Positions 42,941 through 60,234 of a stretch of 64,000 bases of DNA are shown in pieces (the stretch's first letter is position 1; the number at the start of each line of letters is the position of its first letter). The stretch is taken from IMG/VR virus record IMGVR_UViG_3300008259_002809, positions 1-64,000 of that record. One strand, written 5' to 3'. The position numbers and the translations under genes are program-made. The DNA comes from a virus. Under the pieces are notes generated by a model, which was given only the letters and a program-made list of their open reading frames with translations, searched no databases and was not told the DNA's origin.

Positions 42941-43408
42941 ATGTGGCAGATAATGTGGGCTTTTAGCCTGATTCCAGATTCGGTGATGGTATGGATCATC
43001 AACATCTTGTTGATTGTTGGTGTTGCTGGCACCGTGGCTGGTTTCTTTTTAAAGATTATTCCATTTGTAAATCAATACCGCTTGCCAGTGCAGATCGTCA
43101 GCATTGCTTTGTTGGTATTGGGTGTATGGCTCAAAGGCGGGCAAAGCGAGCGTCTGGTATGGCAGGCTCGTGTTGCTGAAATGGAAGCCAAGGTTGCGGC
43201 CGCAGAAGCCGAAGCCAAAAAAGAAACTGTTAGAGTAGAAACCAAGATAGTTGAACGTGTTCGCGTGATTCAAGGCGAAACAAGAACTATTGTCAAAGAA
43301 GTTCCAAAAATTATCACCAAAGAAGTTGATGCCAAGTGTGAGATACCCACACAGGCCATTGACTTATATAACCGTGCCGCTCGCGGCCCTGAGGAGCCAA
43401 AGAAATGA
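42941..43408 (+). CDS. Inner-membrane spanin-like (Rz-like) protein
   Basis: N-terminal TM helices, coiled coil, C-terminal Cys; followed by lipoprotein. Confidence 0.6.
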   Translation: MWQIMWAFSLIPDSVMVWIINILLIVGVAGTVAGFFLKIIPFVNQYRLPVQIVSIALLVLGVWLKGGQSERLVWQARVAEMEAKVAAAEAEAKKETVRVETKIVERVRVIQGETRTIVKEVPKIITKEVDAKCEIPTQAIDLYNRAARGPEEPKK

Positions 43409-43677
43409 AACATGTCATTGGCGCTTTAGCACTTGTTGTTTTACTTGCTGGCTGTTCTACTACAGTTCCAGTTAAACGCACATTTCCTGATGCTCCTCCG
43501 TCATTGATGGAACCCGTTGAGCCATTGAAAACTGTTGATCCCAAAGATCCTAAACTCAGCCGAGTCATTGAAACTTCTGTAGAAAACATGGGTTCTTATC
43601 ATGCCTTGGCTGAAAAGTATAAAGCCTGGCAAGAGTGGTATCGCAGTCAAAAGAAAATATTTGACGAAGTAAAGTGA
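43405..43677 (+). CDS. Outer-membrane spanin-like (Rz1-like) lipoprotein
   Basis: LLAGC lipobox, Pro-rich segment FPDAPPSLM. Confidence 0.65.
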   Translation: MKHVIGALALVVLLAGCSTTVPVKRTFPDAPPSLMEPVEPLKTVDPKDPKLSRVIETSVENMGSYHALAEKYKAWQEWYRSQKKIFDEVK

Positions 43678-43903: not shown

Positions 43904-44698
43904 ATGGATCCTTATCAGATTCTCGGCGTAGACCGACGTGCCACACTAGACCAAGTTAAGAAGGCCTATAGAAAACTGGCCAGTCAGCATCATCCTGACA
44001 AAGGTGGCGATACTCAGCGTTTCCAAGAAATACAAGCGGCCTATGATCAAATAACATCAGGTCAAGCGGATCAATCTAGACAGTTCCATTGGGGCGGAAA
44101 CAGCCCAGATTTTCAAGACATGCAGGACATCCTGCGCCGCAATTTCCATGACTTTGACAATATGCATGCAGGTGCTGTTCGCAATCCTGATGTCACTGTG
44201 CGTGTTAGTTGCACATTGGAAGAAGCACACAGCGGCTTTAGTCGTAACATTCAATTTTTATTGCCAAAGCAAGGGTCTAGAAATAAAACCATTGAGTTTC
44301 CTCCTGGCAGTTATCACGGCATAAGAATCAGGCATGCTGGTGATGGTGGCCAATTGGTTTCTGCTATGCCGCCTGGAGATTTGTATTGTGAACTAGAAGT
44401 GCTTCCTCATAAATTCTGGCAACCAAATTTCAAAACACAAGAACTTGAACTCAACCTTACCATTACATTAAAAGAAGCCTTGGTTGGCGCAGACATTATC
44501 ATCACCGACATCAATGGCAGTGATATCCGCGTAACTGTGCCGGCAGGATCACAACCAGGTTCTCGTCTAAGGCTCAAAGGACGAGGGCTACAAAAATTCC
44601 GGCAATCCTGGGTAGGTGACGCTTATATTCGATTACAAGTGTCTATACCAAAACTCACAGAAGACGATTTGAAGAAACCATTGATTGACCTTTTGTGA
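43904..44698 (+). CDS. DnaJ-class chaperone (J domain plus C-terminal domain, no zinc finger)
   Basis: DPYQILG, KKAYRKLA..HHPDKGG, GDLY, LRLKGRG. Confidence 0.9.
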   Translation: MDPYQILGVDRRATLDQVKKAYRKLASQHHPDKGGDTQRFQEIQAAYDQITSGQADQSRQFHWGGNSPDFQDMQDILRRNFHDFDNMHAGAVRNPDVTVRVSCTLEEAHSGFSRNIQFLLPKQGSRNKTIEFPPGSYHGIRIRHAGDGGQLVSAMPPGDLYCELEVLPHKFWQPNFKTQELELNLTITLKEALVGADIIITDINGSDIRVTVPAGSQPGSRLRLKGRGLQKFRQSWVGDAYIRLQVSIPKLTEDDLKKPLIDLL

Positions 44699-53838: not shown

Positions 53839-54230
53839 GTCGACAGTTTAACAACAGCACCGGCACAACATCAACAGAATTTCAATTGGGTGCTGGCACA
53901 GGCGCAGAAGTTAGACAATTTGTGCTGACTGCCAGTGTCAATGGTGCTCCAGTGATGGCTACTGATCGTGCCAGCAACGAGATTGCTGTTGCTGGTGTAG
54001 AATTTTATGATATCAAATTGCTGGCCAAAGATGCCACAGGAACAGTTGCACGTCATATTCGCGGAACTGTTTCTGGAACTACAACAACTAGAATTACAGA
54101 TACGTTCCAAGAAGATTTTGATGGCGATATTGCTGTCACATCCAACGGAACTACGTTTAGTGTTGAATGCACGAGCACCACTTCAGCAAATTTCACAATC
54201 TATGTGACCTTAACAAGGGTTAGTGCATAA
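53835..54230 (+). CDS. Probable virion structural protein
   Basis: Thr-rich beta protein, coupled. Confidence 0.65.
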   Translation: MSRQFNNSTGTTSTEFQLGAGTGAEVRQFVLTASVNGAPVMATDRASNEIAVAGVEFYDIKLLAKDATGTVARHIRGTVSGTTTTRITDTFQEDFDGDIAVTSNGTTFSVECTSTTSANFTIYVTLTRVSA

Positions 54231-55459
54231 TGACAATTGCAAAAATTAAATTTTCTCAACTGCCAGCGGCAGATGACACAGATATTGCCGATGGCGATAT
54301 CATTCCTGTGGTCAATGGCATTGCCAGCAAAAAGATCACATTTGGCAATTTTAAAGAATACTTGGTGTCCAAAGGGTTTGCCAGCATTGACGACGTAAAC
54401 ACTAGAGTCAGCAATGCTATCACTTCCATAGTGGGTGGTGCTCCTGAATACTTAGACACGCTCAAGGAACTAGCAGATGCCATCAATAATGATGCTGGTT
54501 TTGCTACCACAGTGGAAACATTGGTTAATGGAGTATTTGGCAGTAAAACCTCAGACGATTTGCCTGAAGGAGCAACAAACAAATACTTTACCAGTGGTGC
54601 CGCCGACTATCATTTTGACACTAGATTTTTACTAAAAACAACTACGCATTTAGAAGAAGGATCTAGGTTATATTTTACCACAGAACGTGCTCGAGATGCC
54701 ATCTTTGATGCAGATGATTTGATTAACTTTGCCAATGGTGGACAAGTAGGTAATGCACAGTTGGTGCACCAGGGTTCTCCATTTGACGGAATGGACATTT
54801 ACTCTCCTGCTGGCCATGCATGGGTTCAATTAAACTACGATGACACAAACTATGTTTGGGTTGACGAAGACCATGTTGGCATTGACGTTGGCACAGTGAG
54901 TTGGAATTTCACAGGCGACGGCAAACTAGAACTTCCTGCCGGTGGCGATATTGTTGACAGCGATGGTAACAGCGTCTTAGGTGGAGGCACACCTGCACCA
55001 ACCAATATCAATGATTTGGCAGATGTTGTTATTTCAAGTCCAACCGCAGGACAAGTTTTAAAATACAATGGGACAAACTGGATCAATGATACTGATGCTA
55101 CCGGGGGTGGCGGCGGCGGTGAAGTAGGCTCAGATCCTACATTTACCAGCGTCACTGCTACTACTGTCAATGTTCGTGACCTAAACTTCACTGGCACTGG
55201 TGCAGTAAACATTACCAGCAACAACGACATTAACTTGCAAGCCGAAGGTTGGATTACATTTTCTTCATTGCCAAAGATTCCAACATACACCCTAGCACAA
55301 CTTCAAGCATTGGCAGGAGTTCCATTTGGTGCAATTGCTGTTTGCTCAAACCCCACAATTGGTAGCGCAAGGCCTGTATGGTATAACGGATCAGCATGGA
55401 AAGACATGGCCAACGGTGACCTCACAGGCGGTGATGATTTTTCTATATCTGGTCAATAA
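54230..55459 (+). CDS. Tail fibre-like protein
   Basis: KFSQLP, GAPEYLDTLKELADAI, EG.TNKYFT, L.DV....PT.GQVL.YNG..W motifs shared with 48686. Confidence 0.78.
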   Translation: MTIAKIKFSQLPAADDTDIADGDIIPVVNGIASKKITFGNFKEYLVSKGFASIDDVNTRVSNAITSIVGGAPEYLDTLKELADAINNDAGFATTVETLVNGVFGSKTSDDLPEGATNKYFTSGAADYHFDTRFLLKTTTHLEEGSRLYFTTERARDAIFDADDLINFANGGQVGNAQLVHQGSPFDGMDIYSPAGHAWVQLNYDDTNYVWVDEDHVGIDVGTVSWNFTGDGKLELPAGGDIVDSDGNSVLGGGTPAPTNINDLADVVISSPTAGQVLKYNGTNWINDTDATGGGGGGEVGSDPTFTSVTATTVNVRDLNFTGTGAVNITSNNDINLQAEGWITFSSLPKIPTYTLAQLQALAGVPFGAIAVCSNPTIGSARPVWYNGSAWKDMANGDLTGGDDFSISGQ

Positions 55460-55471
55460 AGGAACTAGAAC

Positions 55472-56980
55472 ATGGAAAGAGAATATATCATAACTGTTAA
55501 AGATCCAGCAGTCTGGGATACTGGACTCTGGAACGAATTGACCCAAGACGGACTTGGCGATAATTTTATTCCCACCAGAGAAGTAGACGTGGTCAACGAG
55601 CGTCCATTCAATGAATGGTGTGCTCACTTCAATCTCACTGATGAGGAAGCAGAACTAATTCGCCAGGATTCGAGAATTGATACTGTGGAACTGCAAGCAG
55701 ATCTACAGGATGACGTAAAAAAAGAGTTCATTGGAACTAGAACAGCACTCTACGACAAAAGTAACGCAACATCGGCCACAATGAAAAATTGGGGACTACT
55801 TCGATGCATAAACAACAGCGACCCTTTTATCAGTTCAACCAGTGTCAACGGGGATTATACCTATAATTTAGATGGCACAGGAGTTGATGTTGTTGTTATG
55901 GATTCTGGAGTTGAACCAGGCCATCCTGAATTTGCTGTCAATGCTGACGGCACCGGCGGTAGTCGTGTAGTAGATTTCAACTGGGCCAGTCTTGGTGTGC
56001 CAGGCACACCTAGTGCGGCCAGCATTGGCGGATATTTAGGCGATGCTGACGGACACGGTAGTCATTGTGCCGGCATTGCCGCGGGCAATACTTGTGGTTG
56101 GGCACCTGGTGCCGCAATTTACAGCATTAGAATTTTTGGTGGTGCAAGAATCACCAATGGTGCTTACCTAGGAACTATCAGTTCAGACATTGCCTTTGAC
56201 TTGGTTCGTGCATTTCATTTGCAAAAAATTGCTGCCGGCAATACACGACCAACTATCTGCACCAACAGTTGGGGGTATCGTAGCAGTTATTCTGGTATGC
56301 AATATACCGTGTGGCGTGGAACACAATACAATATTACTTCTAGAAATAATTCCTACGGACAGATCAACTCACTGCATCCTTATGTGGTAAACTATCTTGA
56401 TGTATCTGTGAACAATGCGTCCTCAGCAGGTGTCATCATGGTAGGTGCCGCAGGAAACTATCTTCACAAGGCAGATGTCATGGGTGGCATTGACTACGAC
56501 AACTATTATCGTGCCTACAGTGAAAACATTTACTATCATAGAGGTTCTAGCCCAACTCGTGCCAGTTCCATGATCAACGTTGGTGCTGTGGATAACTTTA
56601 CCACAGAACGCAAGGCCTATTTCAGCGAAACAGGTCCTAGAGTGGATGTCTATGCTCCAGGTGTTAGAATCATGAGTGCCTTGAGTAACAATTATGGCAG
56701 TCTCAGTGATCCTAGAAATAGTGCTTATAGAATTGGAAAGATTGACGGAACCAGTATGGCATGTCCGCAGGTCACAGGTCTGTTGGCTTGTGTGCTACAA
56801 GCCCGGCCCACTATGACTCCTGCAGAAGCCAAGCAATTTGTCATTGACCATTCGATGAAAAACGTTTTGCAAGAAGGTAGCAGTTATCTTTATACCAGCA
56901 CTACATACTTGCAAGACGGCAACAACAGATATTTAAAAATGCCTTTCACCAACCCACAACGGGGTGGTATCACATCTTAA
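55472..56980 (+). CDS. Subtilisin-like serine protease (S8)
   Basis: VVVMDSG, GHGSHCAG, AAGN, GTSMACP catalytic motifs; N-terminal prodomain-like region. Confidence 0.93.
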   Translation: MEREYIITVKDPAVWDTGLWNELTQDGLGDNFIPTREVDVVNERPFNEWCAHFNLTDEEAELIRQDSRIDTVELQADLQDDVKKEFIGTRTALYDKSNATSATMKNWGLLRCINNSDPFISSTSVNGDYTYNLDGTGVDVVVMDSGVEPGHPEFAVNADGTGGSRVVDFNWASLGVPGTPSAASIGGYLGDADGHGSHCAGIAAGNTCGWAPGAAIYSIRIFGGARITNGAYLGTISSDIAFDLVRAFHLQKIAAGNTRPTICTNSWGYRSSYSGMQYTVWRGTQYNITSRNNSYGQINSLHPYVVNYLDVSVNNASSAGVIMVGAAGNYLHKADVMGGIDYDNYYRAYSENIYYHRGSSPTRASSMINVGAVDNFTTERKAYFSETGPRVDVYAPGVRIMSALSNNYGSLSDPRNSAYRIGKIDGTSMACPQVTGLLACVLQARPTMTPAEAKQFVIDHSMKNVLQEGSSYLYTSTTYLQDGNNRYLKMPFTNPQRGGITS

Positions 56981-56992
56981 AGAGATGCTATC

Positions 56993-57391
56993 ATGGAACA
57001 GATCTACGAACCACTGTGCAATTTAAGAGTATGCGTAAGCAGAGAACTGTCAGACGAAGAATTTGAGTTGCTGACTGAGATCTTAGAGGATCACATTGGC
57101 GACTACATTGATGACGATCAAGTGATCATGCACGACGTTTATCTTGACGGCTATGACCGCATGTTTACCTGTTACTTGTTCAGCCTCAAGGACTATCTAG
57201 TCAATGCTGAAGACGGTGCCTACCGAGGCGACAGCCTAAGCGCAGACTTGGATGAATGGATGCCAGGTGACGTTATCTGGGAACTTGAAGCCAGTTTGCC
57301 GGACCAGGAAGTAGACGTTGCTGACGATGCTTCAGAGTCTGAAGTGTTTGAATCTGTTCAAGACCAAATCCGTAAACTGCTTAAAGGCTAA
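56993..57391 (+). CDS. Hypothetical acidic protein
   Basis: Clean ORF, highly acidic. Confidence 0.6.
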   Translation: MEQIYEPLCNLRVCVSRELSDEEFELLTEILEDHIGDYIDDDQVIMHDVYLDGYDRMFTCYLFSLKDYLVNAEDGAYRGDSLSADLDEWMPGDVIWELEASLPDQEVDVADDASESEVFESVQDQIRKLLKG

Positions 57392-57422
57392 CATACGCTG
57401 ACAATCATGACTAGATAAAGTC

Positions 57423-57878
57423 ATGAGAGATCAATTAAAAGAACAAGGCTACGTCCTACGCGAAGGCTGGGACGATGCTATACAGCGTGACTTTGAGATT
57501 TGGTATCGCTTCACAGAGGATCGTTCTGTTTCCCACTATGCTTTTTATCCCCGCAGAGATCATAGAAACTCTGCAGGATTTGTGCATGGTGGAGTCATGG
57601 CCACATTTGTTGACCACTGTATGGGCAGTATGTGTTGGAGACTCACTGACGGCGGATTTGGTTGGACCATTACGCTAAATCTACAGTTTGTGAGACCTGC
57701 CAGAGTCGAGCGTTGGCTCTTTGCAGAAGTCCGGCACTTGACGGGCACTGACTCAAATATTTTGTTGGATGCTCGTGTTTACTCTGTGCCAAAGTTTTCT
57801 GGCCCATTGGTAGCACAGGCTCAAGGTAGTTTTACCGTTCCAGGCAAAAAGGCTAAAAAAGCCGTAGACCAACAGTGA
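57423..57878 (+). CDS. PaaI-family hotdog thioesterase
   Basis: H.NSAGFVHGGVMATFVD, TITLNLQFVRPA, A.A.G.F. Confidence 0.85.
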   Translation: MRDQLKEQGYVLREGWDDAIQRDFEIWYRFTEDRSVSHYAFYPRRDHRNSAGFVHGGVMATFVDHCMGSMCWRLTDGGFGWTITLNLQFVRPARVERWLFAEVRHLTGTDSNILLDARVYSVPKFSGPLVAQAQGSFTVPGKKAKKAVDQQ

Positions 57879-57893
57879 CTTTTCACATATAAT
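57865..57893 (+). promoter_or_regulatory. sigma70-type promoter for coiled-coil gene and ncRNA
   Basis: TAGACC-17bp-TATAAT. Confidence 0.6.
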
Positions 57894-57931
57894 AGCAACA
57901 TAGTTTCAAAAACTTCTCTAAGGATATCTCC

Positions 57932-58513
57932 ATGCAAATCAATCTACGCAAGGCCGCTGTGGTCCAGCAAATCATCCAGGACGAAATCAAACGCATTGGT
58001 CAAGAAGACACCAAAATGCGTGTGAGCCTGTTTGAAGAAAATATTCAGGCTCGGCTAGACGAACAGTCGTCTAAGGTTATTGCCACTGCTCAACGTGTCA
58101 GTCGTTTCATGGAAGCCAATCGATACTTCCGTGCCACTGTGGCCAGGAAGAATGCCGAGTTTGGTATTGTTGATTACCTGGCAGAAGATGCCATGTTGGC
58201 GGCCATGGAACAGCGAATTACAACTTTGGTCGAAGCAGACGCTCGACCAGAACTTGATGTGCTACAGCGAGAAATTGCCGCACGTCGAGAAAACAAGGAC
58301 GAAAAAGTTTCTATCTACGGTGGCAGTCGTGAATACGAAATCTCTGTCAATGTTTTGCCCAAGGCCATCATTGAAGGCGCCAAGGGCGAACTAGACAATG
58401 TGCGTCGACGCCGTCGTAAGATCAAGGACGAGATGGTCACCATCAACGTCCGCAACGAGTTTGAAGTTCCTGAGCAAATAGCCTCTGTGCTAATTGAACT
58501 GGGACTTGACTGA
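57932..58513 (+). CDS. Coiled-coil protein, remote DIP1984/DUF6847-like architecture
   Basis: Helical hairpin pattern: LRKA...Q..I, R..VARKN, I.D.LAE, basic RRRRRKIKD..I.N; AAGGA SD. Confidence 0.7.
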   Translation: MQINLRKAAVVQQIIQDEIKRIGQEDTKMRVSLFEENIQARLDEQSSKVIATAQRVSRFMEANRYFRATVARKNAEFGIVDYLAEDAMLAAMEQRITTLVEADARPELDVLQREIAARRENKDEKVSIYGGSREYEISVNVLPKAIIEGAKGELDNVRRRRRKIKDEMVTINVRNEFEVPEQIASVLIELGLD

Positions 58514-58519
58514 GAAGTT

Positions 58520-58746
58520 GGCCGCGCTCAGTCCAAGGTGCTGACAGAAACGCTTGATGACTGCATGTCATCTAAACTTACAGGATCTCAGTCTTGAAAA
58601 CTGATTCCACCAGAGCCTCCTAACCTAGACACAACCATTATATTGATATTTGATGAGTCTAGGCGGTAAAGCACATATTTGCTGGTTACTGTTTGTTGTT
58701 TGCTGTTTGATAGTTTCCGTTAGAACCTTGCACAGCGGCCTTTTTT
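58520..58746 (+). ncRNA. ~225-nt structured non-coding RNA with 7-nt repeats
   Basis: Ends pair (GGCCGC/GCGGCC, CAAGGT/ACCTTG, CTGAC/GTTAG, GAAAC/GTTTC), three internal hairpins, RYTGTTT heptads, terminal T6. Confidence 0.75.
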
Positions 58747-58756
58747 AAGGAGTATA

Positions 58757-59221
58757 ATGACTACTAAGCGTTCTCAATTTCCCAGCAACCCTACACGCAA
58801 TACAGCCGGAGCCTTGCCGTTTAATCAATGGGCACCGCATGGCAACTTCCTTGGATCAGGATCATTTGCAATCGCCGCAAAAAAGAAGCCCAAAAAGAAA
58901 ACTGCTACCAAAAATGTAGTCAGTGTTGAGCCAAACGAGCATCACAGAGACATGATGTGTCGCCCAATCAATCAAGGTGACTATGTGCTGGCTGTCCAAA
59001 ATAATAGACCTTTTCCATTTAAGGTGTTAAAATTAAATGAAACAACGATAACCATTGTGCCTGCTATTAAAACTGGAGACCTTGGTCGCAAATCTCTTAT
59101 TGCTGTTAGAGCCACTGGTGGATCAATTCCTGCTTATAAAAGTTATAGGCGAGAAGGTTGGAATGTTTATGTGATTCCTAAAGAAGAAATTTTCATGTAT
59201 CATTTAATGGGTAATGTATGA
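58757..59221 (+). CDS. Hypothetical protein with SH3/KOW-like C-terminal region
   Basis: AAGGAG SD; RDMM.RPI..GDYV pattern. Confidence 0.65.
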   Translation: MTTKRSQFPSNPTRNTAGALPFNQWAPHGNFLGSGSFAIAAKKKPKKKTATKNVVSVEPNEHHRDMMCRPINQGDYVLAVQNNRPFPFKVLKLNETTITIVPAIKTGDLGRKSLIAVRATGGSIPAYKSYRREGWNVYVIPKEEIFMYHLMGNV

Positions 59222-60234
59222 CAGGACGAATTGGCTTTGCTTGTAAATGGATTGATACACCAGAGGAGTGTGCTGGTCGCAAACCTACATCGCACAGCCG
59301 AGACCTAAACGGTCGTTCAACCACAATGCGTTGGCTTCGTGAGCACAAAGACGAAGCCGAACAGCGCCAATGGGATATCATGAACCACAATGCACAGGCC
59401 GCGCTGAACATGGTGGAACGAGTTGGTTCATTGCCCGAGCACTTGCGTATGGTTCGACTAGGCAGTGAAATGCTACAGGGCTACACTGAGCCCAACTGGA
59501 TTGACTGGTGGCAACAAGCAGACATCCAACGACACCTAGAAAAGATCTTTGCTCCTGTAGGTGCCCGTGCTCGAGAGTTGGGAGTAAGACTTAGTTTCCA
59601 CCCTGGACAGTTTTGTGTGTTGGCGTCAGAGAACGACGAAATTGTAGAACGCAGTATCCTGGAGTTTGAATATCATGCAGACATGGCCCGCTGGATGGGC
59701 TATGGCAAGACTTTCCAGGACTTTAAGATTAACGTGCATATATCAGGACGTCGTGGTCCAGACGGTATCAAGGCCATACTTTCGCGGTTATCACCTGAAG
59801 CCAGAAACACTATAACTATTGAAAACGATGAAATGAGTTGGGGCATTGATGCCAGCCTAGAACTGGTTGACCATTGTGCCTTGGTATTGGACATTCATCA
59901 TCATTGGATTAAAACTGGAGAATATATTGAAAGCACTGATGACCGTGTTAAAAGGATTCGTGATAGTTGGCGTGGTGTTCGCCCTGTCATACACTACTCT
60001 GTTTCTAGGGAAGATATACTTGGAGAACATTCCCGACACGCCCGTCCCTCTCTTCAGACCCTCTTAGACGCAGGTTATAAAAAAGCCAAACTCAGAGCAC
60101 ACAGCGATTTCTATTGGAATCAAGACGTAAACACCTGGGCCGGAACGTTCACTGATGATTTTGACATCATGTGCGAAAGCAAGGGCAAGAACTTGGCCAG
60201 TTTTGAATTTGCGGCCAAAATAAAAGCAAGGTAA
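59218..60234 (+). CDS. uvsE: UV damage endonuclease UvsE
   Basis: RIGFACK, RLSFHPGQF.VL, TIENDE, VLDIHHH, AHSD, MCESK.K. Confidence 0.92.
   Translation: MTGRIGFACKWIDTPEECAGRKPTSHSRDLNGRSTTMRWLREHKDEAEQRQWDIMNHNAQAALNMVERVGSLPEHLRMVRLGSEMLQGYTEPNWIDWWQQADIQRHLEKIFAPVGARARELGVRLSFHPGQFCVLASENDEIVERSILEFEYHADMARWMGYGKTFQDFKINVHISGRRGPDGIKAILSRLSPEARNTITIENDEMSWGIDASLELVDHCALVLDIHHHWIKTGEYIESTDDRVKRIRDSWRGVRPVIHYSVSREDILGEHSRHARPSLQTLLDAGYKKAKLRAHSDFYWNQDVNTWAGTFTDDFDIMCESKGKNLASFEFAAKIKAR

What the first reader, a model, noticed from the sequence alone, without database searches (positions are those of the whole stretch)
57865..58746. Coiled-coil protein gene plus dedicated ~225-nt structured RNA with 7-nt repeats: candidate undescribed ribonucleoprotein system
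Seen: a sigma70 promoter (57865-57893), a 193-aa helical protein with an Arg-rich patch, then 6 nt after its stop one of the largest non-coding gaps in the window. The ends of this gap pair in a long interrupted stem: GGCCGC 58520/GCGGCC 58735, CAAGGT 58534/ACCTTG 58725, CTGAC/GTTAG, GAAAC/GTTTC, then T6. It encloses hairpins GATGAC/GTCATC, TCAGT/ACTGA and CCTAGAC/GTCTAGG. It also holds a run of heptads CATATTT-GCTGGTT-ACTGTTT-GTTGTTT-GCTGTTT (58674-58708). From memory, the protein's helix pattern resembles DIP1984/DUF6847-type coiled coils (unverified). Inference: the protein binds its own downstream RNA, perhaps one protomer per heptad, forming an RNA-scaffolded oligomer or an RNA-antitoxin/effector pair expressed early in infection.
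Basis: partly seen in the sequence, partly recalled or inferred. Interest (0 to 1): 0.85.

Follow-up and report, generated by a model that had tools for sequence, protein, structure and literature searches.

The report
Phage UG-heptad RNA with partner protein
Right behind a small helical-protein gene this uncultured freshwater jumbo phage encodes a real, conserved, folded RNA of about 225 bases carrying UG marks every seventh base, and gene and RNA stay together across very distant phages, so they probably form an undescribed protein-RNA particle whose job is untested.

Summary
The RNA is real. In 21 distinct sequences 24 of 41 base pairs show compensatory changes (0 of 500 shuffles reach this). 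G-U pairs fix the + strand. Contigs from RNA libraries of three studies cover it. No Rfam family matches.

It is a compact member of a much wider, uncatalogued RNA class: closing stem, CUUGAAAA-loop hairpin, long hairpin with a UG loop, and a UG-every-7-nt tract. This class accompanies distant homologues of the protein (23-29% identity). Of 62 distinct loci, 58 have one same-strand copy, 38 upstream and 20 downstream, often inside jumbo-phage tRNA arrays. A cultured Brevundimonas phage has the pair too.

The protein is predicted to form a symmetric dimer, and its best fold match is 3kdq (the DIP1984 structure). It does not match the Pfam DUF6847 model. Binding of protein to RNA is inferred, not shown. 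The antitoxin and one-protomer-per-heptad ideas are untested.

This scan has already reported the same class on at least eight other genomes. I found it in no paper that I searched. The closest analogues are HutP-hut RNA and VIPR.

The parts
57865..57893 (+). Sigma70-type promoter: -35 TAGACC at 57865-70, 17-nt spacer, -10 TATAAT at 57888-93
   Evidence: Consensus scan gives 10 of 12 matches. The same site, TTGAC-N17-(TG)nTATAAT/TATACT, is conserved in 15 of 15 aligned clade loci.
57920..57924 (+). Shine-Dalgarno AAGGA, 7 nt before the ATG
   Evidence: Read from the sequence. AAGG is conserved in alignment A10.
57932..58513 (+). Gene of the 193-aa all-helical partner protein. It belongs to an uncatalogued family with N-terminus MKINLRKA and the Arg-rich helix RRRRRKIKDEM.
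   Evidence: ORF. 153 relatives; 1327 representatives at E<=1e-3. AF2 model pLDDT 85.7. No Pfam or NCBIfam match. Best fold match 3kdq, Z 10.8. Predicted homodimer, ipSAE 0.72 against best control 0.13.
58520..58551 (+). 5' strand of the interrupted closing stem P1: GGCCGC, CAAGGU, CUGAC, GAAAC
   Evidence: Helices 1-3 of A2 have 11 of 22 pairs with changes on both sides.
58556..58572 (+). Hairpin P2 (GAUGAC/GUCAUC), variable in sequence between relatives
   Evidence: Relatives carry other self-complementary sequences at this place, such as CAUCGAUUAUCGAUG and UUUCGCAUUAUGCGAAA. It is not in the RNAalifold consensus because the columns are misaligned.
58588..58604 (+). Hairpin P3 with conserved loop CUUGAAA(A), preceded in relatives by ACUGGC
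   Evidence: Helix 4. The same loop motif is seen in distant loci.
58624..58663 (+). Long hairpin P4. Its loop holds two further heptads, UUGAUAU UUGAUGA, at 58643-58656.
   Evidence: Helices 5-6 have 11 of 15 pairs with changes on both sides. The loop UUGAURUUUGAUG is invariant or nearly so.
58676..58712 (+). Single-stranded tract of five U/G heptads (UG/UUG every 7 nt)
   Evidence: In the distant class the UG positions are invariant at 7-nt steps.
58713..58740 (+). 3' strand of closing stem P1: GUUUC, GUUAG, ACCUUG, GCGGCC
   Evidence: The G-U pairs would be A-C mismatches on the other strand, which fixes the + strand.
58741..58746 (+). U6 run after the closing stem, giving a terminator-like 3' end. 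A T-run is present in only some relatives.
   Evidence: RNA-library contigs of two studies end at 58737 and 58742. Most clade relatives lack the T-run. The simple terminator scan did not call it because the enclosed loop is too long.

Best explanation
Shown:
- 58520-58740(+) encodes a stable, folded non-coding RNA.
- It lies in one unit with the upstream 193-aa gene, behind a conserved sigma70-type promoter.
- It is a compact member of a large, uncatalogued class of phage RNAs. The class has a closing stem with a purine-rich 5' strand, a hairpin with a CUUGAAAA loop, a long hairpin whose loop carries UG heptads, and then a single-stranded tract with UG/UUG every 7 nt.
- This class is always found beside members of this protein family, on either side of the gene.

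Inferred:
- The protein, predicted to be a symmetric dimer that leaves its conserved Arg-rich helix free, binds the RNA.
- Several copies are spaced by the 7-nt UG marks, while the surrounding helices hold the tract open.
- The product is a phage ribonucleoprotein particle made from early (host-RNA-polymerase) transcripts.
- Its cellular target is unknown. The class sits in tRNA arrays, near GOLLD RNA and sometimes beside a phage rpoZ-like gene. This points to RNA metabolism or the transcription-translation machinery, but that is a guess.
For: RNA reality:
- 24 of 41 pairs have compensatory changes and 95.6% of cells are paired; 0 of 500 shuffles reach this, and slid controls give 4-9 pairs.
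- G-U pairs at columns 20/232 and 34-36/220-222 fix the + strand.

Expression hint (Logan contigs from RNA libraries):
- X3: a 260-nt contig at 58475-58737, depth figure 196.5. Neighbouring contigs have 3.2-4.5.
- X6: a 298-nt contig at 58445-58742, 100% identical, and the only contig on the stretch.
- X2: an 884-nt contig at 57819-58705 that joins the gene and the RNA.

Linkage within the clade:
- R1 gave 22 full-length matches (E<=1e-25) among 48 sources. All lie on contigs already found through the protein. The other 24 pattern-scan loci gave no full-length match.

Linkage across the family:
- The iterated nhmmer profile hits 58 of 62 distinct-protein loci, one hit each, always on the gene's strand.
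- 38 lie upstream (33-268 nt before the ATG) and 20 downstream (15-1614 nt after the stop).
- Small ORFs, tRNAs or another RNA sometimes lie between gene and RNA.

Same class as the window's element:
- The core model R2, built only from distant loci, puts its best match in the own record exactly on P3-P4-heptads, 58576-58713 (E 0.26; E 0.116).
- R1 reciprocally finds L133 directly after its homologue (E 0.24).
- The motifs ACUGGC, CUUGAAAA, GUGCUUG and the UG heptads are shared.
- The closing stem and the long hairpin also covary in the distant alignment.

Cultured example: Brevundimonas phage Kabachok has a homologue followed by a 311-nt unannotated gap. The gap folds with z = -6.37 and carries 5 UG at 7-nt steps.

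Protein:
- Predicted homodimer, ipSAE 0.72 against best control 0.13. Runs agree in at least 94% of contacts and partner pLDDT is at least 87.
- In calibration the mark was reached by 20 of 30 proteins solved as pairs of one chain and by 1 of 23 solved as single chains.
- My own alignment was used, so these counts hold only roughly.
- The interface (residues 19-146) leaves helix 144-174, with RRRRRK, outside it.
Against: - No call tests binding.
- All RNA evidence comes from assembled contigs. These cannot show level, ends or strand, and may contain DNA. X2's contig starts 46 nt upstream of the -35 hexamer.
- The links between the window's element and the distant class by covariance model are individually not significant (E 0.1-0.3).
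- The model built from distant loci did not find the Kabachok RNA.
- The nhmmer profile was built from the same loci that it was counted on.
- Many distant loci are RNA islands where everything lies on one strand, so part of the adjacency could be shared location.
- A helical dimer has no recognised RNA-binding domain: no Pfam, NCBIfam or PADLOC family matched.
- In this clade the heptads are U/G-rich and fairly conserved, which would also fit a host-factor binding site.
Confidence: 0.55

Rival explanations
1. The RNA works without the neighbouring protein. It could be a decoy or sponge for a host single-strand RNA-binding factor that reads U/G-rich heptamers, or a self-assembling RNA like GOLLD and ROOL. 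On this reading the gene is merely co-transcribed.
For: - The tract is U/G-rich and low in information. In this clade it is rather conserved, UUUGAU/UUUGCU.
- The class lies in tRNA/GOLLD islands, where other protein-free ornate RNAs occur (PMC12286853, passages read).
- The RNA-library contigs restricted to the element have higher depth figures than those on the CDS, with the stated limits of contigs.
Against: - The pair stays together when the order is inverted and when no tRNAs are near: the window clade has 0 tRNAs in 64 kb.
- Each locus holds exactly one RNA beside one gene.
- The conserved basic helix and the predicted dimer fit a nucleic-acid binder.
Confidence: 0.22
2. The element is a cis-acting untranslated region of the protein's own mRNA. 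It would act as a terminator or stabiliser, or as an autoregulatory operator, and not as a trans-acting RNA.
For: - It is always on the gene's strand. It ends 33-48 nt before the ATG in many upstream cases, or starts a few nt after the stop.
- In the window the closing stem is followed by U6.
- One RNA-library contig joins the gene and the element.
Against: - Other genes, tRNAs or a second RNA can separate the two, by up to 1614 nt.
- Most clade relatives have no U-run.
- Four helices with conserved loops and an invariant UG period go far beyond what a terminator needs.
- Two RNA-library contigs cover only the element plus 40-70 nt of the CDS.
Confidence: 0.13
3. It is a programmable guide, analogous to VIPR. 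The protein would polymerise on the UG marks, and the variable bases between them would read a nucleic-acid target in a gapped code.
For: - Invariant UG alternates with unconstrained positions. The mean entropy is 1.36 bits at the variable heptad columns and 1.0 at other columns. In pairs that are 77% identical elsewhere, these columns are 62% identical.
- VIPR shows that such logic exists in phages (10.64898/2026.04.26.720920, Results read).
Against: - The variable bases are compositionally biased to U and G.
- They are identical between some relatives whose stems differ, for example L179 and L183.
- In the window clade most heptad positions are conserved.
- There is only one RNA per locus and no array.
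- The protein is not a RAMP.
Confidence: 0.05
4. It is a DNA-level element, such as a replication origin with iterons or a protein-binding array, and not an RNA.
For: There are short direct repeats in an AT-rich gap.
Against: - The compensatory changes include many G-U pairs, which work on one strand only.
- The stretch is covered by contigs from RNA libraries.
- Its orientation always follows the gene.
Confidence: 0.02
5. It is a type III toxin-antitoxin pair, with an RNA antitoxin and a protein toxin.
Against: - The repeats are 7 nt, not about 36 nt (the 36-nt figure is recalled).
- In the window the RNA lies downstream of the gene.
- No PADLOC family was matched by more than 1 of the 25 members.
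- The protein is an all-helical dimer.
Confidence: 0.02

Closest known systems
HutP with the hut terminator RNA of Bacillus subtilis (PMC2425495, passages read)
   Same: The RNA carries a trinucleotide mark every 7 nt (UAGNNNNUAGNNNNUAG) that is read by an oligomeric protein. The spacers are sequence-independent. There are two tracts per RNA; here a second pair of heptads sits in the P4 loop.
   Different: - The mark is UG/UUG, not UAG.
- Here the tract is embedded in a closed, multi-helix, stable RNA rather than a leader or terminator.
- The partner is an all-helical predicted dimer with no likeness to HutP in any search.
- No ligand or antitermination context is seen.
VIPR systems: Vipr protein plus vrRNA (bioRxiv 10.64898/2026.04.26.720920, Results read; 10.64898/2026.04.26.720927, abstract and outline read)
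   Same: It is phage-encoded. A small protein gene is flanked by a non-coding RNA with tandem short repeats in which a conserved motif alternates with variable bases. The repeat tract adjoins a structured part.
   Different: - Vipr is a RAMP/RRM protein; this one is helical.
- The vrRNA unit is 5 nt (GGY/NN) in 9-16 copies, often in arrays of RNAs. Here the unit is 7 nt in about 5-9 copies, with one RNA per locus.
- No hypervariability between near relatives was found.
GOLLD and ROOL RNAs (Rfam RF02032 and RF03087; PMC12286853 and its preprint, passages read)
   Same: They are ornate phage RNAs of unknown function found near tRNA islands. GOLLD lies in 3 of the 20 distant loci scanned, near the protein gene.
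   Different: - The element does not match the GOLLD model or any other Rfam model.
- It is much smaller (221-290 nt).
- It has a fixed protein neighbour, whereas no protein partner is known for GOLLD or ROOL.
   Same: It is the best structural match over almost the whole chain: VIA-align Z 10.8, rmsd 3.0 A, 143 of 152 residues, model range 2-178. Foldseek gives probability 0.97 and E 0.16. A neighbouring Atlas cluster carries PF20935 in 19% of its members.
   Different: - There is no HMM match to PF20935 for any family member or in 5 records.
- There is no sequence match to 3kdq with the family profile.
- For helical proteins, Z below about 13 may be a common arrangement (note).
- The function of 3kdq is unknown.
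Stable RNAs of unknown function in phage tRNA regions (T5 RNAI, RNAIII, RNA2H, RNAX and others, as annotated in AY543070.1; T4 species 1 and 2 RNAs, recalled)
   Same: They are non-tRNA stable RNAs encoded among phage tRNA genes with no known role.
   Different: No homology was shown. The family profile finds no protein homologue in T5.

Membership tests
UG/UUG-heptad phage RNA class with helical partner protein (this scan's own, unpublished class) | Closing stem formed by the two ends of the RNA | tested here: met
   Window 58520-51 pairs with 58713-40. It covaries in the clade and in the distant alignment, helix at columns 86-91/342-347.
UG/UUG-heptad phage RNA class with helical partner protein (this scan's own, unpublished class) | Hairpin with loop CUUGAAAA, and a long hairpin whose loop carries UG heptads | tested here: met
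   P3 at 58588-604 and P4 at 58624-63, with UUGAUAUUUGAUGA in the loop. The same features are in A8 and A9.
UG/UUG-heptad phage RNA class with helical partner protein (this scan's own, unpublished class) | Tract of at least 4 UG/UUG at a 7-nt period on the gene's strand | tested here: met
   58676-58712. UG is invariant at 7-nt steps in 31 distant sequences.
UG/UUG-heptad phage RNA class with helical partner protein (this scan's own, unpublished class) | Detected by a model built from other members | tested here: inconclusive
   R2 places its best hit in the own record at 58576-58713, but at E 0.26 and 0.116.
UG/UUG-heptad phage RNA class with helical partner protein (this scan's own, unpublished class) | Adjacent homologue of the ~190-aa MKI(N/S)LRKA protein | tested here: met
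   Window ORF 57932-58513. The family alignment A5 is 23-47% identical to it.
Any Rfam 15 family (including GOLLD RF02032, 6S, tmRNA, riboswitches) | Covariance-model match at the gathering score, or any match at E<=10 | tested here: not met
   0 matches at the gathering score in the 64-kb window. The only match at E<=10 in 57800-58900 is a chance bxd_2 hit on the - strand, E 1.1.
VIPR (Vipr + vrRNA) | Vipr protein with a RAMP/RRM core, G-loop and thumb | tested here: not met
   The AF2 model is all-helical with two short strands. No RAMP appears among the listed fold matches.
VIPR (Vipr + vrRNA) | RNA of 9-16 YNNGG units (5-nt period) | tested here: not met
   The period is 7 nt and the mark is UG/UUG.
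VIPR (Vipr + vrRNA) | RNA co-purifies with the protein and guides DNA binding | not testable with these tools
   This needs a pull-down and binding assays.
HutP-hut RNA | UAG-N4 repeats in a leader or terminator that is read by HutP | tested here: not met
   The period is the same, but the mark is UG/UUG. The protein has no Pfam match at all, so none to HutP.
Pfam PF20935 (DUF6847) / DIP1984-like | HMM match above the curated cut-off (27 bits) | tested here: not met
   No match at E<=0.1 for the window protein. None at E<=0.01 for 25 family members. None at E<=10 in 5 records searched in six frames.
Pfam PF20935 (DUF6847) / DIP1984-like | Fold of PDB 3kdq | tested here: inconclusive
   It is the top hit in both searches (Z 10.8, rmsd 3.0, 143 of 152 residues; Foldseek probability 0.97, E 0.16). 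It is below the level that is safe for helical proteins.
Type III toxin-antitoxin (ToxIN-like) | Tandem repeats of about 36 nt upstream of an endoribonuclease toxin (feature recalled) | tested here: not met
   The units are 7 nt, and the RNA lies downstream of the gene in the window. No PADLOC family was matched by more than 1 of the 25 members.
Rad, retron anti-defence protein of T5-like phages (preprint 10.1101/2023.03.15.532788, passages read) | 189-aa protein of the tRNA region with a primase/TOPRIM-type domain | tested here: not met
   The family has no TOPRIM or other Pfam domain. T5's Toprim-annotated gene in the tRNA region is T5.076. The family profile finds nothing in T5. I could not compare with Rad's own sequence.

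The most novel reading that the evidence does not exclude
The helical protein polymerises along the UG-marked tract, one dimer or protomer per 7 nt. It buries the invariant UG and presents the four variable bases of each heptad as a gapped guide that recognises a DNA or RNA target. This would be a second, independently evolved 'noncontiguous code' like VIPR, built from an unrelated protein fold and carried by jumbo phages inside their tRNA islands.
Probability: 0.05. Interest if true: 0.95.

Novelty: categorically new. Interest (0 to 1): 0.78.

Why it matters
If the pair is a ribonucleoprotein, it is a widespread and undescribed one.

- The protein family has 1327 representatives at 50% identity clustering.
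- 431 loci matched in IMG/VR in one scan.
- The carriers are large phages with tRNA arrays, and at least three cultured Brevundimonas jumbo phages have the protein. In one of them, Kabachok, I also saw the RNA.

It would add a protein-partnered member to the ornate RNAs of phage tRNA islands (GOLLD, ROOL), whose functions are a long-standing open question. It would also give that question a tractable handle: a small RNA, a small protein and cultivable phages. The strict 7-nt UG periodicity is an unusual RNA signature and implies a defined mode of protein-RNA recognition that is worth a structure.

Tried and rejected
Searches that found nothing or were weak:
- Rfam, whole window at the gathering score, and 57800-58900 at E<=10: nothing relevant.
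- tRNA/tmRNA scan of the window: 0 genes.
- blastn of 57400-59300 against cultured phages: no match.
- tblastn of P0150 against phages: no match.
- PHROGs: a weak phrog_25120 hit for the window protein (E 0.0025). 6 of 25 family members hit phrog_25230, of unknown function.
- NCBIfam and PDB sequence searches with the profile: only chance-level hits.
- PADLOC: no family was matched by more than 1 of the 25 members.

A corrected conclusion: I first concluded that the 29%-identity homologue L042 lacks the RNA. That was wrong. R2 finds the RNA upstream of the gene (E 1.7e-18).

Crude heptad finders are specific but insensitive.
- UUG x4: 21 of 62 loci, 0 on the opposite strand, 0 elsewhere.
- UG x5: 11 of 62 loci, 1 elsewhere.

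Models:
- R1 on 47 distant loci: only weak hits, best E 0.24.
- R2 on the whole Kabachok record: no hit. The Kabachok RNA rests on its fold z-score and on heptads seen directly.

Structure in or near the CDS:
- I looked for a hairpin in the CDS 3' end (UAGCA-CUUG-UGCUA, about 58479-58494). Its changes are not compensatory, so I make no claim.
- A scan for extra pseudoknot helices in A2 and A8 found none beyond the known stems. It did find alternative pairings of the GAAAAU strand with U-rich heptads.

T5 and Rad:
- Earlier notes of this scan link the class to phage T5 (T5.085 plus a downstream RNA). The A5 profile finds nothing in T5. PF20935 finds nothing in T5. hhalign of A5 against T5.085 gives probability 0.2%. 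So I could not confirm a relation at the sequence level. A single sequence against a profile is a weak test.
- I considered Rad (anti-retron) because it is about 189 aa and lies in the tRNA region. I rejected it because it is described as TOPRIM-type.

Read data:
- No part of the stretch without cover is used as evidence.
- No DNA run was laid beside the RNA runs.
- X1 held only CDS fragments with adapter-like loose ends.

Limits:
- Supplements are closed. The 8495 IMG/VR candidate RNAs of PMC10690425 (passages read) may include this motif unnamed, and I could not check.
- Literature searches that found no description of this pair.
Full report
WHAT IS THERE

The window is the first 64 kb of a 73-kb IMG/VR virus record that CheckV rates 22% complete, so it is probably a jumbo phage. 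At 57865-57893 lies a sigma70-type promoter-like site, TAGACC-17-TATAAT. Such sites are no more frequent in the region than in shuffles. This one, however, is conserved as TTGAC-N17-(TG)nTATAAT/TATACT in 15 of 15 aligned relatives.

The promoter is followed by AAGGA and a 193-aa ORF at 57932-58513. Six bases after the stop codon a 221-nt element begins whose two ends pair:
- 58520-25 with 58735-40
- 58534-39 with 58725-30
- 58541-45 with 58719-23
- 58547-51 with 58713-17

The closing stem encloses three hairpins (58556-72, 58588-604, 58624-63) and a single-stranded tract of five U/G heptads (about 58676-58712). U6 follows.

THE RNA IS REAL

Homologues of the protein (54-61% identity) in IMG/VR are all followed, right after the stop codon, by an alignable non-coding stretch. 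There are 20 distinct versions plus the window's.
- RNAalifold predicts 41 pairs, of which 24 keep pairing through changes on both sides.
- With the counting tool, 95.6% of cells are paired. None of 500 shuffles reaches the observed 24 pairs (shuffled mean 10.9 +/- 1.9). Sliding the partner by 1-3 columns gives 4-9.
- Frequent G-U pairs would be A-C mismatches on the other strand, so the + strand is the one that folds.

A covariance model of the element (R1) found 22 full-length matches among 48 sources. All were on contigs already reached through the protein. The other 24 loci fetched by a motif scan of IMG/VR gave no full-length match. No Rfam 15 family matches.

EXPRESSION (A HINT ONLY)

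Twenty-four metatranscriptome runs from 19 studies hold small parts of the stretch. I laid four of them, all as Logan contigs.
- X3: a 260-nt contig at 58475-58737 with a depth figure of 196.5. Neighbouring contigs have 3.2-4.5.
- X6: a single 298-nt, 100%-identical contig at 58445-58742.
- X2: an 884-nt contig at 57819-58705 that joins the gene and the RNA.
- X1: only CDS fragments.

Two contigs from two studies end at the 3' end of the closing stem. Contigs cannot prove transcription, ends, strand or level, and I laid no DNA run beside them.

Both short contigs start 40-70 nt inside the CDS. The last ~35 codons have unusually conserved synonymous sites: a most-common-codon share of 0.78-0.89, against 0.56-0.66 in mid-gene. 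This could reflect an RNA 5' extension or a processing signal. It remains unexplained.

THE PROTEIN

There is no Pfam, NCBIfam or PADLOC family for it. The family is large. It has 153 near-length relatives in one search and 1327 representatives at E<=1e-3, of which 701 are at E<=1e-10. Members are about 185-195 aa, with a conserved N-terminus MKI(N/S)LRKA and a basic helix.

AlphaFold gives a confident all-helical model, pLDDT 85.7. The best structural match in both searches is PDB 3kdq, an uncharacterised C. diphtheriae protein:
- Foldseek: probability 0.97, E 0.16.
- VIA-align: Z 10.8, rmsd 3.0 A, 143 of 152 residues aligned.

An Atlas neighbour cluster carries PF20935 (DUF6847) in 19% of its members. 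The PF20935 HMM itself matches nothing.

Two copies of the protein are predicted to form a symmetric dimer. The ipSAE score is 0.72 against a best control of 0.13. The runs agree in at least 94% of contacts and the partner pLDDT is at least 87. In calibration the mark was reached by 20 of 30 proteins solved as pairs of one chain and by 1 of 23 solved as single chains. Because my own alignment was used, those counts hold only roughly. The interface spans residues 19-146 and leaves the Arg-rich helix outside it.

THE WIDER CLASS

Distant homologues (23-29% identity to the window's protein) were fetched from IMG/VR. One scan found 431, of which 80 were kept; another gave 60 loci. Twenty of these loci gave 143 tRNA hits and 3 GOLLD hits, so many of the genes lie inside jumbo-phage tRNA arrays.

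Next to the gene there is again an uncatalogued RNA with the same plan:
- a closing stem with a purine-rich 5' strand
- ACUGGC followed by a hairpin with loop CUUGAAAA
- GUGCUUG leading into a long hairpin whose loop holds UG heptads
- CAGGCCYCUGUG followed by UG/UUG every 7 nt
- often a U-run at the end

In 31 aligned sequences the UG positions at 7-nt steps are invariant. The closing stem and the long hairpin covary there too.

An iterated nhmmer profile hit 99 loci. Reduced to 62 loci with distinct proteins, 58 have exactly one hit, always on the gene's strand.
- 38 are upstream, ending 33-268 nt before the ATG.
- 20 are downstream, starting 15-1614 nt after the stop.
- 3 more are found only weakly by the core model R2 (E 0.005-0.05).
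- 1 locus is cut off 318 nt after the gene.

Several things can lie between RNA and gene: a 138-aa ORF, a small basic ORF, an RNA-polymerase omega-like ORF (PF01192, E 3e-11), a tRNA, or a second unknown RNA.

The window's element is linked to this class in four ways:
- the homologous protein
- the shared motifs
- R2's best hit in the own record, which falls exactly on P3-P4-heptads (E 0.26 and 0.116)
- R1's reciprocal weak hit on L133 (E 0.24)

Each model hit alone is not significant.

Cultured phages carry the protein too. Three Brevundimonas jumbo phages were hit. In Kabachok the gene is followed by a 311-nt unannotated gap that folds with z = -6.37 and shows five UG at 7-nt steps. R2 did not detect that RNA.

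HOW IT MOST LIKELY WORKS

Shown: a conserved, folded RNA in a promoter-gene-RNA unit, and a gene-RNA neighbourhood that survives inversion of order, insertions, and loss of the tRNA context.

Inferred: the protein binds the RNA, with several dimers registered on the UG marks.

The 7-nt period equals that of HutP's UAG-N4 sites (PMC2425495). The logic of a conserved mark alternating with variable bases recalls VIPR. Neither family's defining protein or motif is present here.

The variable heptad bases behave like unconstrained positions. They are not hypervariable guides. Their entropy is 1.36 bits against an upper quartile of 1.39 for other columns, and they are biased to U and G. I therefore give the guide reading only about 5%.

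I rate the particle hypothesis at about 0.55, a protein-independent RNA at 0.22 and a cis-acting UTR at 0.13. What the particle does is unknown.

RELATION TO EARLIER NOTES OF THIS SCAN

After my own analysis had reached the wider class, a look-up showed that the same 'UUG-heptad RNA with partner protein' had been reported on at least eight other genomes.
- Those notes gave me the VIPR papers.
- They also pointed to cultured Caulobacter-type phages, which I confirmed independently with Brevundimonas phages.
- They claim a link to T5 (T5.085 plus a downstream RNA), which I could not confirm by sequence.

NOVELTY

I found no description of this pair in Rfam 15 or in six literature searches. Rad, the anti-retron protein of T5-like tRNA regions, is described as TOPRIM-type and is a different protein.

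Noticed in passing
L214:1775-2020 (+). Similar ORFs seen by eye in L204 and L220.: A phage-encoded RNA-polymerase omega-like ORF lies between the heptad RNA and the partner-protein gene in some jumbo-phage loci. It is 81 aa and matches PF01192 RNA_pol_Rpb6 at E 3e-11, above the cut-off.
   Followed up: partly
L162:2574-2910, and similar stretches in L160, L161, L165, L169, L178, L204 and L224: A second conserved non-coding stretch of about 330 nt lies directly after the protein's stop codon. It starts CAGACCCCG and contains GACUUGAGAAAUC and GGACAGAGUAACAGCUCAGUCUAGGGC. It ends in a tRNA-like T-arm and acceptor segment. It has no Rfam match.
   Followed up: no
L205:951-1415, L196:4199-4561, L181:1-351: GOLLD RNA (RF02032, 156-201 bits) lies within 1-2 kb of the partner-protein gene in 3 of the 20 distant loci scanned. 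Dense tRNA arrays surround it (143 tRNA hits).
   Followed up: no
window 58400-58513: The last ~35 codons of the 193-aa gene have unusually conserved synonymous sites, for example CGTCGACGCAAGATCAAGGACGAGATGGT, which is nearly invariant. Two RNA-library contigs start here, at 58445 and 58475. This may be an RNA 5' extension, a processing site or an internal promoter.
   Followed up: partly
window 58729-58758: A second sigma70-type promoter-like site, TGCACA-18-TATAAT, overlaps the 3' strand of the closing stem and the U6 run. It lies just before the SD and ATG of the next gene at 58757. That downstream gene differs between relatives.
   Followed up: no
window 54230-60234: Neighbouring genes: a tail-fibre-like protein (54230-55459, PHROG tail families), a subtilase (55472-56980, PF00082), a 4HBT thioesterase (57423-57878, PF03061) and a UvdE UV endonuclease (59218-60234, PF03851). 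The thioesterase and UvdE-sized ORFs also flank the pair in relatives.
   Followed up: no
window 44424-44454 (-): This is the only other run of four UUG at a 7-nt period in the window. It is on the minus strand. I did not examine it, and it may be chance or coding.
   Followed up: no
L233 (T5, AY543070.1 28000-56000): The T5 tRNA region is annotated with eight stable RNAs of unknown function, including RNAX (719 nt) and RNA2H. A 363-nt unannotated gap (record 43142-43504) follows T5.085. T5.076 carries a Toprim annotation and is probably the counterpart of 'Rad'.
   Followed up: partly
window 58347-58388 in run X1: One RNA-library contig shows an 'opposite strands' joint, and several contigs have loose ends that read like sequencing-adapter sequence. 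This is probably a library artefact.
   Followed up: no
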